64,000 nt of DNA, taken from Chthonomonas sp. Lineage in GTDB: Bacteria; Armatimonadota; Fimbriimonadia; Fimbriimonadales; Fimbriimonadaceae. Made by a program: the position numbers and the translations under genes. Below are positions 47,227 through 48,179 of the stretch, piece by piece. The notes under the pieces are model-generated. The model made no database searches. It was not told the origin of the DNA and saw nothing but the letters and a program-made list of their open reading frames with translations. Numbering within the stretch: the stretch's first letter is position 1; each line of letters starts with the position of its first letter. The DNA is taken from NCBI GenBank assembly GCA_043754215.1, contig JAYUVF010000002.1:42317-106316 (forward strand), written 5' to 3'.

Positions 47227-47254
47227 CGCCCTCTCCGATTTAGTGGAGAGGGCG
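47227..47254. repeat. GC hairpin related to the type 2 palindromic element
   Basis: CGCCCTCTCC-gatttagt-GGAGAGGGCG, a perfect 10-bp stem, lies between convergent genes. The stem sequence matches the CCCTCTCC/GGAGAGGG core of the nrdJ inserts. Confidence 0.7.
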
Positions 47255-47285
47255 GACGGCAAGCAGCGCCAGCCGAATCAGTTCT

Positions 47286-47822
47286 TCAGGAGGCCAATTC
47301 TTGAGTCTGGAACGCCTCAAATACCGGCAGGTAGAAGGTCCACTTATCCTGCCCTTTCGCCTTCAGGTAGGCCGGAAGCGAGATGTAGGGGATGAAATGG
47401 GGGCGTCGCGGGGTGGTTTTCAGCTTCATTTTGGCTTGCTGAGGGGTTTTGTCACCCTTCTTTAGATTGCATTTGCGACAGCAGGCAACGAGGTTATCCC
47501 ACTTGTGTGGACCGCCCATCCATCGGGGAACGACGTGGTCGATGGTCAAGTCTTTCCCCTTGAGGCCGCAGTACATGCAGGTGTAGCCGTCGCGCGCGAG
47601 AATGCTGTGTCGCGACAATCGGAGTTGCGGCAACGGGCGTCGGACGTGATAGCGCATTTTTACGACGCTCGGAGCCTGCAATTCGCCTCGCGTGGTGAAG
47701 AGGGCTCGCTCGTCGTGTTCAAGCACCTCGGCCTTGCCGAGCATGACCAAGGACATCGCCCGTCGGACGTGACACACGTTCAACGGTTCGAAGTCTGAAT
47801 TAAGCAATAGGACTTCTTGCAT
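47286..47822 (-). CDS. HNH endonuclease with PLMP-like N-terminal domain (IshB-like, no RuvC)
   Basis: N-terminus [35 protein letters not shown] core CMYCG...[30 protein letters not shown]. 178 aa. Confidence 0.8.
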   Translation of the reverse strand: [178 protein letters not shown]

Positions 47823-47857
47823 CGTCGTTTCTCTACTTTCGCACTGATTGGCCCAGG

Positions 47858-47902
47858 CGCAAAACAGAAACGGGGTCGGCAGTGCAAGACATGCCGACCC
47901 CG
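47858..47902 (-). terminator. Intrinsic-terminator-like hairpin in the leader of the HNH gene
   Basis: On the minus strand, CGGGGTCGGCA-tgtcttgcac-TGCCGACCCCG (11-bp perfect stem) is followed by TTTCTGTTTTG. The hairpin base is 48 nt upstream of the ATG. Confidence 0.6.
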
Positions 47903-48120
47903 TAGGGAACCGAAGCCCAGGCAGACGCTATCGCAGTGTCCGCCCAGGCCATCGGTCGGCGTATCAAGAAGTCCCGGTCCATCCAGTTTTGGCGCATGGC
48001 TCTGTTCAGTTTGACGATGAAAGGCTACAAAAGGAAGCATAGAATTGCTGGGTTTTAAGGAGAGTTAACTTGCCCCTGTGGAAAACGCGGGGACGGAGGC
48101 GGCTTTCCGGTACAATTTCG
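47858..48120 (-). ncRNA. Candidate structured RNA or cis-regulatory leader upstream of the HNH gene (5' boundary unknown)
   Basis: The 357-bp gap has no credible ORF. It contains the terminator hairpin, three GCCUGGGC motifs and a 7-nt duplicate of the terminator 3' arm. The class is undetermined. Confidence 0.25.
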
Positions 48121-48179
48121 CGTCTGTTACGGGTACATCGGCGGTCTTTTCGCCGTGCACTTTTTTAAGGCTACAAACT

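What the first reader, a model, noticed from the sequence alone, without database searches (positions are those of the whole stretch)
47227..48179. IshB-like PLMP+HNH mini-protein preceded by a 357-bp ORF-free structured leader: possible omega-RNA/HEARO-like or riboregulated module
Seen in the protein: the 178-aa ORF starts [35 protein letters not shown]. It continues into a zinc-finger HNH core (CMYCG...[29 protein letters not shown]). No RuvC-like segment is present.
Seen upstream on the same strand (47823-48179): 357 bp with no credible ORF. It contains:
- an 11-bp perfect hairpin (47871-47881/47892-47902) followed on the minus strand by UUUCUGUUUUG, with its base 48 nt before the ATG. That leaves little room for a separate promoter, so the gene is probably read through from further upstream;
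- three GCCUGGGC motifs (plus-strand GCCCAGGC at 47851, 47915, 47942);
- a 7-nt copy (47954-47960) of the terminator 3' arm. It could pair with the 5' arm as an alternative, antiterminator-like structure.
Seen downstream: the gene is closed by a perfect 10-bp GC hairpin (47227-47254).
Established: the N-terminal pattern resembles the PLMP domain of IscB (for example GKPLMP...GHVRILLKEGKA). IscB and IsrB are RNA-guided nucleases of IS200/IS605-type elements. Their large omega-RNA, the HEARO motif, is encoded immediately 5' of the ORF. To my recollection the same work (Altae-Tran et al. 2021) named a ~180-aa PLMP+HNH-only group IshB, with no characterised RNA partner or activity.
Inference: this locus may couple an IshB-type HNH protein to a structured RNA, either an omega-like guide/scaffold or a cis-acting attenuator/riboswitch. 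I could not recognise SRP, RNase P, tmRNA or 6S hallmarks in the region.
Basis: partly seen in the sequence, partly recalled or inferred. Interest (0 to 1): 0.8.

Follow-up and report, generated by a model that had tools for sequence, protein, structure and literature searches.

The report
Upstream-ORF attenuator before an IshB-like nuclease
The "empty" leader in front of this small PLMP+HNH (IshB-type) nuclease gene is not a guide RNA: it holds a conserved, unannotated short reading frame with rare codons that runs through a transcription terminator and ends at the nuclease's start codon, so expression probably depends on how well that frame is translated.

Summary
The 178-aa protein is an IshB-type protein. 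Its N-terminal 62 residues fold with pLDDT 92.7, and the nine best PDB fold matches are all IscB/IsrB. Its HNH domain is closest to IscB/Cas9d HNH domains, and there is no RuvC.

The omega-RNA idea is not supported. There is no Rfam/HEARO match in the window or in 7 orthologous loci. There are no IS ends. The gene is single-copy and syntenic (murA-mreB) in Armatimonadota.

The leader is not ORF-free. The 54-codon ORF at 47833-47997(-) is conserved in frame. It has a conserved ATG and, 16-19 codons later, a W-x-D-T-I-I-R motif. The Ile codons of this motif are ATA in 34 of 35 cases, against a 3% background. The terminator stem starts 33-41 nt after the motif. In 20 of 22 loci the ORF stays open through the terminator and stops within -17 to +22 nt of the HNH start, often as an ATGA overlap. 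The control frames do this in 1 and 2 of 22 loci.

Chthonomonadales relatives carry a homologous ~55-aa ORF with a clear coding signature. Its stop codon abuts the terminator.

Best reading: a translation-coupled (pyrL-like) attenuator plus translational coupling. This is a moderately interesting new variant of a known mechanism.

The parts
47286..47822 (-). IshB-type gene (178 aa): PLMP domain plus HNH nuclease, no RuvC
   Evidence: ORF. Pfam HNH_5 and HNH, E 1e-15 and 1e-13. NCBIfam guided_IscB at 67.9 bits, below its 175-bit cutoff, matched in two stretches. Invariant family columns C82, C85-type CxxC, D95, H96, N110, C115, C118 and N119. More than 1000 homologues, 67-93% identical within Armatimonadota.
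47637..47822 (-). PLMP-like N-terminal domain (residues 1-62)
   Evidence: AF2 pLDDT 92.7. The 9 best Foldseek PDB hits are all IscB/IsrB. Residues 4-36 match positions 1-33 of the guided_IscB profile at a weak E of 0.09.
47418..47615 (-). HNH (beta-beta-alpha-metal) nuclease domain with zinc-binding CxxC...CxxC (about residues 70-135)
   Evidence: The best solved relative is the TbaIscB HNH (E 1e-17), followed by type II-D Cas9 HNH domains.
47833..47997 (-). Upstream ORF (uORF), 54 codons: MRQNWMDRDFLIRRPMAWADTAIAS...K*. It runs through the terminator and stops 10 nt before the HNH ATG.
   Evidence: ORF listed. In-frame conservation of ATG plus motif in 12 of 13 loci and in 23 of 24 loci. The stop lies within -17 to +22 nt of the HNH start in 20 of 22 loci, against 1 and 2 of 22 for the other two frames.
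47929..47946 (-). Conserved uORF core motif W-x-D-T-[I/A]-I (TGG GCG GAC ACT GCG ATA); family consensus TGG ACN GAC ACG ATA ATA CGN
   Evidence: Alignment A1 and the table. Ile codons at the two motif positions are 34 ATA, 1 ATC and 0 ATT. In window genes ATA is 6 of 184 Ile codons. In 17 Fimbriimonadaceae HNH genes it is 3 of 114.
47913..47950 (-). Local hairpin enclosing the motif; its arms are two of the GCCUGGGC copies
   Evidence: -24.7 kcal/mol, z = -5.2. An equivalent hairpin scores z <= -2.5 in 7 of 13 loci (8 of 13 at z <= -1.7). It is weak or absent in L004, L006, L007, L008 and L011 (z about 0 to -1.2), and it is not in register. It is therefore facultative.
47954..47960 (-). GCCGACC: copy of the terminator 3' arm inside the uORF (codons R-R-P); candidate antiterminator strand
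   Evidence: Sequence. The upstream region pairs with its own locus's terminator 5' arm better than with arms from other loci: permutation p = 0.018, mean rank 5.2 against 7.5 expected. In Chthonomonadales the partner is GCGCGGGUC or UUGCGGGCC, with a compensatory change between subgroups.
47861..47903 (-). Intrinsic terminator inside the uORF: stem 47891-47903 / 47870-47882, loop 47883-47890, U-tract 47861-47870
   Evidence: In 14 Fimbriimonadaceae-type loci the stem sequences differ but the 5' arm always starts 33-41 nt after the motif's Asp codon.
48008..48036 (-). Conserved blocks cTTTTt ... TCGT plus a TAnnnT-like hexamer (CAAACT here) 8-11 nt before the uORF ATG; putative promoter of a nearly leaderless uORF (inference only)
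   Evidence: Conserved columns in A1 and sequences. There is no experimental or model-based support. A plus-strand sigma-70-like site for murA overlaps it at 48017-48045.
47227..47254 (.). Perfect 10-bp GC-rich hairpin, 32 nt after the HNH stop, between convergent genes; no U-tract on either strand
   Evidence: Not analysed further.

Best explanation
The locus is a resident, single-copy chromosomal IshB-type (PLMP+HNH) nuclease gene of an Armatimonadota bacterium. It is expressed as the second cistron behind a short, unannotated upstream ORF.

Shown:
- The uORF is under selection as a reading frame. It has a conserved start and a fixed 16-19 codons to a W-x-D-T-I-I-R motif.
- The motif is written with the rare AUA codon.
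- An intrinsic terminator lies inside the uORF at a fixed 33-41 nt after the motif.
- The uORF stays open through the terminator and ends at or over the nuclease's start codon.
- In Chthonomonadales-type relatives the homologous ~52-65-codon ORF instead stops 0-3 nt before the terminator stem.

Inferred mechanism: this works like the E. coli pyrL/pyrBI attenuator.
- A ribosome that follows RNA polymerase closely through the uORF, or sits on a stop codon abutting the stem, prevents the terminator hairpin from forming. Transcription then continues into the nuclease gene, and termination-reinitiation at the ATGA/TGATG overlap delivers ribosomes to it.
- A ribosome that lags or pauses at the rare-codon/peptide motif about 25 nt upstream leaves the hairpin free to form, and the transcript ends before the nuclease gene.
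- Nuclease output would therefore be kept low and tied to translation performance at that motif, for example supply of the AUA-reading tRNA-Ile, or a nascent-peptide arrest.

The sign of regulation and the signal sensed are not established. No guide RNA is involved as far as these data show.
For: Protein identity.

Resident gene:
- Each of the 32 genome hits came from a different assembly, so no assembly showed a second copy at this scan's sensitivity.
- murA-mreB synteny in 10 of the 13 closest genome-scan loci whose upstream flank was held.
- 67-93% identity across the family.
- No IS-like repeats.

uORF is coding:
- Chthonomonadales core, frame 0: mean BLOSUM62 over differing codons +1.35, 32% synonymous, 0 stops. 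Frames +1 and +2: about -0.75, 8% and 7% synonymous, 5 and 6 stops. Differences by codon position are 449/366/674.
- Fimbriimonadaceae type: ATG and motif in frame in 12 of 13 loci, with length classes differing only by multiples of three.

Rare codons:
- 34 ATA, 1 ATC, 0 ATT at the motif, against 2.6-3.3% background.
- The rare CUA Leu codon is enriched in the Chthonomonadales core, 6 of 9 at one position against 4% background.

Terminator:
- Conserved in position, variable in sequence.
- Too little room for a separate promoter. Stem-to-ATG distance is 29-58 nt in 8 of the 14 Fimbriimonadaceae-type loci with a detected terminator, but 75-149 nt in the other six.

Coupling:
- The first stop after the motif falls within -17 to +22 nt of the HNH start in 20 of 22 loci in the uORF frame, against 1 and 2 of 22 in the other frames.
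- ATGA overlaps occur in L014, L037, L178 and L183.

Precedent:
- A ribosome at a stop codon close to a terminator represses it. Termination efficiency fell from about 90% to under 10% when the stop was moved from 28 to 5 nt upstream of the stem, and more than 27 nt was needed for full termination (PMC4824070).
- pyrL attenuation needs tight coupling, and an upstream translational stall raises termination (PMC5021804).
Against: - There are no expression data. The promoter, the transcript ends and translation of the uORF are all inferred from comparative sequence.
- The uORF ATG has no obvious Shine-Dalgarno sequence. The leaderless-mRNA idea is a guess.
- Five of the 23 loci with the motif lack an in-frame ATG (L035, L176, L184, L186, L187) and would need GTG or TTG starts.
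- In 2 of 22 loci (L004, L184) the uORF stops before the terminator.
- Downstream of the motif the peptide is not conserved. A simple stop-frequency test for the open frame was only moderately significant: P about 0.008 for 13 or more of 14 open, whereas 12 of 14 were observed open to -26 nt.
- Exclusive use of ATA could instead reflect an RNA-level constraint, because the AUAAUA sits in a hairpin loop in about half the loci.
- The antiterminator covariation is modest (p = 0.018).
- The ~30-residue conservation in Chthonomonadales is also what a functional small protein would show.
Confidence: 0.6

Rival explanations
1. The upstream ORF encodes a functional small protein (about 50-65 aa) that works with or restrains the nuclease, for example as an inhibitor or antitoxin-like partner. 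The terminator would simply be a leaky intercistronic terminator that sets a high small-protein to low nuclease ratio. This is not mutually exclusive with attenuation.
For: - Chthonomonadales-type ORFs have consistent lengths (51-65 aa) and a ~30-residue conserved core...GF-x-[LM]-RGS-x-RLR-[ML]-LADSF-[HE]-H-x-H..[AS][LV]FH, under purifying selection.
- The family spans three Armatimonadota orders.
- Gene callers occasionally predict it: 9 proteins of 45-86 aa in a 5.8-billion-protein collection, all unnamed.
Against: - In the window's own group only a 7-residue motif is conserved. The rest of the peptide, including everything encoded over and after the terminator, varies freely in sequence and length (28-87 aa from the conserved ATG).
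- Ile codons at the motif are almost exclusively the rare ATA, which amino-acid-level selection does not explain.
- No Pfam, NCBIfam or PADLOC match.
Confidence: 0.2
2. The leader acts at the RNA level only, as a riboswitch or a protein-binding leader. One example would be the hairpin with the GAUAAUA loop bound by the PLMP domain for autoregulation, switching between antiterminator and terminator. The reading frame would be incidental.
For: - A stable hairpin presents AUAAUA in or next to its loop in most loci: z <= -2.5 in 7 of 13 and z <= -1.7 in 8 of 13.
- Terminator/antiterminator complementarity is present.
- In IscB/IsrB the PLMP domain sits against the omega RNA, which is why the solved complexes matched all contain that RNA. 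The exact contacts are my recollection of those structures.
Against: - The coding signature.
- The conserved 14-nt block persists where no hairpin forms: L006 and L011 have z about 0, and L007 -0.65.
- RNAalifold finds no consensus structure on the anchored alignment.
- No Rfam family matches.
- The frame ends at the HNH start in 20 of 22 loci, which an RNA-only element does not need.
Confidence: 0.1
3. One reading: the 357-bp region encodes an omega-RNA/HEARO-like guide or scaffold RNA that partners with the IshB protein, as in IscB/IsrB systems of IS200/IS605 elements.
For: - The protein does carry the PLMP domain, which in IscB/IsrB sits against the omega RNA.
- A review lists IshB among OMEGA nucleases (PMC10530073).
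Against: - No HEARO or any other Rfam match at E <= 10, nor at gathering score in the window and 7 orthologous loci.
- Only about 140 nt between the conserved ATG and the U-tract is conserved, and its conservation is codon-phased.
- The whole region folds no better than shuffles (z = -1.72).
- No transposon ends, no TnpA, and no second copy in any assembly hit; synteny with murA-mreB.
- Chloroflexota and Gemmatimonadota orthologues have no such leader at all. The Chloroflexota ones have a TGnTATnAT promoter-like box directly upstream.
Confidence: 0.03
4. The conserved element is an independent small-RNA gene with its own terminator that merely lies next to the nuclease gene, which has its own promoter.
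For: A conserved block followed by an intrinsic terminator is the usual anatomy of a small-RNA gene.
Against: - The element follows the HNH gene into different neighbourhoods: L003, L006, L011, L174, L176, L183 and L184 lack murA upstream.
- The spacer from terminator stem to ATG is as short as 29-50 nt.
- The frame continues to the HNH start.
Confidence: 0.05

Closest known systems
IshB (PLMP+HNH proteins of about 180 aa named by Altae-Tran et al. 2021, as described in PMC11610941 and PMC10734217)
   Same: - Length of 178 aa.
- N-terminal PLMP-fold domain: the top 9 PDB fold hits are all IscB/IsrB.
- An IscB-like HNH domain with intact D-H...N and CxxC...CxxC motifs.
- No RuvC segments.
   Different: - Here the gene is not in an insertion sequence. 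No assembly showed a second copy, the gene is syntenic with murA-mreB, it is vertically conserved at 67-93% identity, and no omega RNA is detectable.
- No activity or RNA partner of IshB is described in the papers I could read. The primary paper was not available.
IscB/IsrB with omega RNA (Rfam HEARO)
   Same: A shared PLMP domain and, for IscB, a shared HNH domain. In both cases a conserved non-annotated region lies immediately 5' of the gene.
   Different: - IscB/IsrB have a split RuvC and a TAM-interacting domain, and their omega RNA is a large structured RNA of a few hundred nucleotides (sizes from my recollection).
- Here the 5' region is a translated short ORF with a terminator. It has no HEARO match and no guide-like segment.
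E. coli pyrL/pyrBI attenuator (translation-coupled transcription attenuation)
   Same: A leader ORF is translated across an intrinsic terminator, so a closely following ribosome suppresses the hairpin and a lagging one allows termination (PMC5021804; PMC4824070). The geometry here fits this: the terminator is inside the uORF, or the stop codon is 0-3 nt from the stem.
   Different: - pyrL senses UTP through polymerase pausing. Here the conserved element is a peptide/rare-codon motif (W-x-D-T-I-I-R with AUA AUA) at a fixed distance from the terminator, which suggests that ribosome rather than polymerase speed is sensed.
- The regulated gene is a nuclease, not a biosynthetic operon.
- The uORF stop overlaps the downstream start.
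trp/his/phe/ilv leader-peptide attenuators and arrest-peptide leaders (TnaC, SecM, ErmCL)
   Same: A short leader ORF, alternative antiterminator/terminator pairings, and regulatory codons or a conserved nascent-peptide motif that ends abruptly where conservation stops.
   Different: - There is no run of one amino acid related to the regulated product.
- The antiterminator strand lies upstream of the putative pause site, so a stalled ribosome would sit between the two strands, unlike trp.
- There is no sequence similarity to TnaC, SecM or Erm leaders. That comparison is from memory only.
Stand-alone HNH endonucleases annotated as McrA (COG1403) and phage HNH family phrog_16726
   Same: This is how databases name the protein. 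phrog_16726 covers residues 2-143, so it includes the PLMP-like part (E 5e-36).
   Different: EcoKMcrA has a different N-terminal domain. Only the HNH core aligns to it.

Membership tests
IshB (PLMP+HNH, no RuvC) | N-terminal PLMP domain as in IscB/IsrB | tested here: met
   The AF2 model of residues 1-62 has pLDDT 92.7. Foldseek PDB ranks 1-9 are all IscB/IsrB chains: TbaIscB, HfmIscB, DtIsrB 8dmb, OgeuIscB 7xht/7utn/8csz/8ctl, 9liq and OrufIscB. Probabilities are 0.97-1.0 and TMq 0.57-0.63, though E is only 0.08-0.24 because the domain is short. By sequence alone the match is weak: guided_IscB profile positions 1-33, E 0.09, and nothing significant in the PDB sequence searches. The literal P-L-M-P tetrapeptide reads E-P-L-N here.
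IshB (PLMP+HNH, no RuvC) | HNH nuclease domain of the IscB/Cas9 type with catalytic and zinc-binding residues | tested here: met
   Pfam HNH_5 and HNH. The best solved relative is the TbaIscB HNH, at E 6e-15 for the single sequence and 1e-17 for the profile. Invariant C82, D95, H96, N110, C115, C118 and N119.
IshB (PLMP+HNH, no RuvC) | Absence of RuvC segments and TAM-interacting domain; length about 180 aa | tested here: met
   The protein is 178 aa. The only Pfam hits are HNH families. The guided_IscB score of 67.9 is far below the 175-bit cutoff, as expected for a protein lacking most of IscB.
IshB (PLMP+HNH, no RuvC) | Residence in an IS200/IS605-type element (implied by the name; possibly not a strict criterion) | tested here: not met
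   No terminal repeats or hairpin ends around the gene. The neighbours are murA, mreB, a secreted protein, an HhH-GPD glycosylase and ligA. No assembly among the 32 genome hits showed a second copy, and synteny is conserved.
OMEGA system (nuclease plus omega RNA / HEARO) | A structured guide RNA encoded next to the nuclease gene and recognisable by the HEARO covariance model | tested here: not met
   cmscan of 46800-48600 at E <= 10 returned only a chance mir-1013 hit at E 4.2. At gathering score, the whole window and 7 orthologous loci gave tRNAs only.
OMEGA system (nuclease plus omega RNA / HEARO) | Conserved secondary structure with covarying pairs in the flanking non-coding region | tested here: not met
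   RNAalifold found no consensus pairs on the anchored alignment. The local hairpin is present in only about half the loci. The conservation is codon-phased.
OMEGA system (nuclease plus omega RNA / HEARO) | RNA-guided cleavage of a target | not testable with these tools
   This needs biochemistry.
Ribosome-mediated (leader-ORF) transcription attenuator | Short ORF upstream of, and in the same direction as, the regulated gene, maintained by selection | tested here: met
Ribosome-mediated (leader-ORF) transcription attenuator | Intrinsic terminator between the leader start and the regulated gene, within reach of a ribosome translating the leader ORF | tested here: met
   The terminator lies inside the uORF in the Fimbriimonadaceae type. 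In the Chthonomonadales type the stop codon is 0-3 nt from the stem. The reach criterion comes from PMC4824070.
Ribosome-mediated (leader-ORF) transcription attenuator | Alternative antiterminator pairing | tested here: inconclusive
   Own-locus complementarity gives permutation p = 0.018. There is a consistent partner, GCGCGGGUC or UUGCGGGCC, with a compensatory change between subgroups. However, its position upstream of the putative pause site does not fit the classical trp scheme.
Ribosome-mediated (leader-ORF) transcription attenuator | Regulatory codons or an arrest motif at which ribosome speed is sensed | tested here: inconclusive
   There is striking rare-codon use: ATA in 34 of 35 Ile codons, and CTA enrichment. 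The spacing to the terminator is fixed at 33-41 nt. Pausing itself is not shown.
Ribosome-mediated (leader-ORF) transcription attenuator | Condition-dependent read-through demonstrated by transcript mapping | not testable with these tools
   This needs Term-seq, RNA-seq or reporter assays.
Known anti-phage defence systems (PADLOC) | A specific model match together with the partner genes of the system | tested here: not met
   There are only generic HNH-domain hits (PtuB at 2e-10, PDC-M01B, DpdF). No PtuA or other partner is nearby.

The most novel reading that the evidence does not exclude
IshB in Armatimonadota may be a domesticated nuclease whose synthesis is gated by a dedicated sensor uORF. 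In this reading, the W-x-D-T-I-I-R peptide written with tandem AUA codons (CUA in the sister order) acts as a ribosome-pausing or arrest element that reports translation status. One candidate signal is supply of the lysidine-modified tRNA-Ile that reads AUA. The conserved GAUAAUA-loop hairpin could additionally be bound by the protein's own PLMP domain, as a minimal cis-acting counterpart of the omega-RNA contact. That would link an RNA-guided-nuclease ancestor or relative to translation surveillance, rather than to transposition.
Probability: 0.1. Interest if true: 0.7.

Novelty: new variant of a known kind. Interest (0 to 1): 0.42.

Why it matters
IshB is the least understood branch of the IscB/Cas9 lineage. 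It is cited as a possible donor of the HNH domain or as an early RNA-compatible state (PMC12477157, PMC13284715), yet the papers I could read describe no activity, partner or context for it.

This locus shows three things for one phylum:
- An IshB-type protein can be an ordinary resident gene under strong purifying selection.
- It has no detectable omega RNA.
- It has an elaborate, conserved expression gate, which suggests that uncontrolled synthesis is harmful.

The work also adds an unannotated small-ORF family and a leader-ORF attenuator with unusual features: tandem rare AUA codons, a terminator inside the ORF, and stop-start overlap. These come from a phylum whose gene regulation is little studied. 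The predictions are directly testable with reporter constructs.

Tried and rejected
- HEARO/omega RNA and all other Rfam families: no match.
- Whole-leader structure: not significant, z = -1.72.
- GCCUGGGC as a motif: not conserved beyond the nearest relatives.
- A universal hairpin around the conserved block. RNAalifold on the anchored, ungapped alignment gave no pairs. Per-sequence folding shows the hairpin in only about half the loci. I therefore dropped an RNA-structure explanation for the 14-nt conserved block.
- Other reading frames for the conserved block. Frame +1 ends in TAA/TAG/TGA inside the motif. Frame +2 is interrupted in several loci, and GAA TAG in L009 kills the 'D-T' frame.
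- Sequence-only detection of PLMP in the PDB failed. The whole-protein model matched only HNH domains well. A domain-only model resolved the question.
- A crude stop-frequency test of the open frame was only moderately significant. I replaced it with a frame-control test.
- IS features, such as repeats and copy number: none.
- Defence-system membership: generic HNH hits only.
- The primary IshB paper (Science 2021; PMC8929163) is not in the held library. The definition of IshB therefore rests on reviews.
- The uORF peptide has no Pfam, NCBIfam or PADLOC family.

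
Full report
**Setting**

The window is 99% identical at this gene to a metagenome-assembled 'Chthonomonas sp.' genome (Armatimonadota; locus L001). The 178-aa ORF at 47286-47822(-) lies between a convergent small ORF and a divergent murA. The murA ATG is at 48180 (+), and the protein matches EPSP_synthase at E 6e-91. mreB follows it. The 357 bp in question is therefore a divergent intergenic spacer.

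**Observation check**

- a 12-bp perfect hairpin, 47870-81 / 47892-903;
- a following U-rich tract;
- three GCCUGGGC copies;
- the 7-nt copy of the terminator 3' arm at 47954-60;
- the downstream 10-bp hairpin at 47227-54.

Taken as a whole, the region is not unusually structured (z = -1.72). The GCCUGGGC copies are not conserved beyond the nearest relatives.

**The protein**

- Pfam sees only HNH families.
- NCBIfam's IscB model matches in two stretches, far below its cutoff. The N-terminal stretch alone aligns to profile positions 1-33 with a weak E of 0.09.
- PDB sequence searches find the HNH domain, with TbaIscB best at E 1e-17 followed by type II-D Cas9s. They do not find the N-terminus.
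- A model of residues 1-62 is confident (pLDDT 92.7). Among 350,542 PDB chains, its nine best fold matches are all IscB or IsrB. They include DtIsrB, which has no HNH domain, so the match is to the PLMP domain (probabilities 0.97-1.0, TMq about 0.6).
- The catalytic D-H...N and the CxxC...CxxC residues are invariant.

Together with the length and the absence of RuvC, this is the IshB architecture as reviews describe it (PMC11610941, PMC10734217). The papers I could read describe no function or RNA partner for IshB.

The family is large. There are 4,580 cluster representatives at E <= 1e-10. It is also common on viral contigs, with at least 562 loci, and phrog_16726 covers residues 2-143.

**No omega RNA, no insertion sequence**

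- Rfam gives nothing at E <= 10 around the gene. At gathering score, the window and seven orthologous loci give tRNAs only.
- There are no terminal repeats.
- Each of the 32 genome hits came from a different assembly, so none showed a second copy at this scan's sensitivity.
- murA-mreB synteny holds in ten of the thirteen closest genome-scan loci whose upstream flank was held.
- Identity is 67-93% across the phylum's family-level relatives.
- Only generic HNH hits appear in a defence-system library.

**What is conserved upstream**

I aligned the upstream regions of the closest group, here called the Fimbriimonadaceae type. This revealed a nearly invariant block, TGG ACN GAC ACG ATA ATA CGN, followed by a terminator-like hairpin. 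The block is present even where murA is not the neighbour.

The block is not primarily RNA structure. A hairpin around it scores z <= -2.5 in 7 of 13 loci. It is weak or absent in L004, L006, L007, L008 and L011, although the block is intact there. RNAalifold finds no common pairs.

The block is codon-phased:
- A conserved ATG (window 47997) opens a frame that reaches the motif W-x-D-T-I-I-R. It does so without stops and in frame in 12 of 13 loci, and 23 of 24 loci carry the motif after adding contigs.
- The ATG-to-W distance is 16-19 codons in 17 loci, and the length variants differ by whole codons.
- At the two Ile positions the codons are 34 ATA, 1 ATC and 0 ATT. ATA is 6 of 184 Ile codons in the window's genes and 3 of 114 in the orthologous HNH genes.
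- The terminator 5' arm starts 33-41 nt after the Asp codon in all 14 loci, although the stem sequences differ.
- After the motif the peptide is unconserved, but the frame stays open across the terminator. Its first stop falls within -17 to +22 nt of the HNH start codon in 20 of 22 non-redundant loci. The other two frames do this in 1 and 2 of 22 loci.
- Several loci have ATGA or TGATG stop-start overlaps. In the window the stop (47833-35) ends 10 nt before the ATG.
- The two exceptions, L004 and L184, stop just before the terminator stem.

**The sister groups**

Chthonomonadales-type and related loci carry a homologous ORF of about 51-65 codons. Its core is ...GF-x-[LM]-RGS-x-RLR-[ML]-LADSF-[HE]-H-x-H..[AS][LV]FH, or ...GR-x-AGLLRLLDDSFS.

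Its coding signature is clear:
- Over differing codons, frame 0 scores +1.35 BLOSUM62 with 32% synonymous changes and no stops.
- The other two frames score about -0.75, with 8% and 7% synonymous changes and 5 and 6 stops.
- Third positions carry most differences: 449/366/674 by codon position.

Here the stop codon lies 0-3 nt from the terminator stem (and the sequences). The core is enriched in the rare Leu codon CUA. The terminator 5' arm's best upstream partner is the R-G-S codon segment GCGCGGGUC. In the second subtype it is UUGCGGGCC opposite AAGCCCGC, a compensatory change. In the window's group, own-locus complementarity between the upstream region and the terminator arm is modestly better than cross-locus (p = 0.018).

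Only nine members of this small-ORF family exist in a 5.8-billion-protein collection, all unnamed. Gene callers leave the 230-520-nt gap empty.

The Chloroflexota orthologues have a TGnTATnAT promoter-like box directly upstream and no leader. The Gemmatimonadota and AT-rich orthologues also show no such terminator-bearing leader.

**Mechanism (inference)**

A terminator that lies inside a translated ORF, or within a few nucleotides of its stop codon, is suppressed by a closely following ribosome. It works when translation is uncoupled (PMC4824070). The E. coli pyrL leader uses exactly this principle, and an upstream translational stall increases termination there (PMC5021804).

The fixed spacing between the rare-codon motif and the terminator, the frame kept open through the hairpin, and the stop-start overlap fit a gate of this kind:
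- Smooth translation of the uORF allows read-through and delivers ribosomes to the nuclease start.
- Pausing at the motif lets the terminator form.

The stem-to-ATG distance is as short as 29-58 nt in eight of the fourteen Fimbriimonadaceae-type loci with a detected terminator. That leaves little room for a separate promoter there.

I could not establish any of the following:
- the promoter (a conserved cTTTTt...TCGT plus TAnnnT-like arrangement 8-11 nt before the ATG);
- whether the mRNA is leaderless;
- the direction of control;
- the signal sensed;
- whether the peptide also has a function of its own.

**Verdict**

The IshB call is right. The guide-RNA reading is not supported. The 'attenuator' alternative is right in spirit, but the leader is a translated upstream ORF. 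This is a new variant of leader-ORF attenuation attached to an uncharacterised nuclease family. It is of moderate interest.

Noticed in passing
window 48139-48165 (+): On the plus strand, a terminator-like hairpin plus T-run (CGGCGGTCTTTTCGCCG TGCACTTTTTT) sits only about 15-25 nt before the murA ATG (48180). It could be a second attenuator, or the end of an antisense or upstream transcript. It is conserved only in the near-identical L001.
   Followed up: no
They fall in phrog_16726, 'HNH endonuclease'. One example lies next to a Nol-like carbamoyltransferase auxiliary gene. IshB-like proteins are therefore not confined to insertion sequences or chromosomes.
   Followed up: partly
loci L062-L079, L064-L076 (AT-rich freshwater metagenome contigs): In this 43-45%-identical group the IshB-like gene sits directly downstream of one to three tRNA genes. 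It is preceded by a conserved CCAGTATGTAAAAA-N-GT-A/T-GTT ATG box, with no uORF or terminator.
   Followed up: no
loci L025, L057, L058 (Dehalococcoidia/Chloroflexota): These orthologues have an extended -10-like box (TGCTATCAT, TGCTATGAT or TGGTATCAT) 25-35 nt before the start codon. They have no leader ORF or terminator, which shows that the leader is lineage-specific.
   Followed up: partly
window 47631-47649 and 47754-47772: A 19-nt direct repeat (84% identity) lies inside the nuclease gene. On the coding strand it encodes H-V-R-R twice (C-HVRR-AM in the PLMP domain and Y-HVRR-PL in the linker). It may be an internal duplication or a convergent basic motif.
   Followed up: no
window 46972-47205 (+) and 46033-46890 (+): A 77-aa ORF has a hydrophobic segment and a Thr-rich tail. 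A 285-aa signal-peptide protein has no Pfam match and is shared only with L001. These downstream neighbours are not part of the conserved murA-mreB-IshB synteny.
   Followed up: no
window 61667-61741 (+): The only RNA gene recognised in the 64-kb window is tRNA-Gly(GCC).
   Followed up: yes
loci L023, L024, L050, L060 (Capsulimonadaceae-type): The upstream ORF here keeps only a His-rich piece (RRRHALFHYQHHQC). This part aligns with the ...ALFH... end of the Chthonomonadales peptide, suggesting a third variant of the leader ORF.
   Followed up: partly
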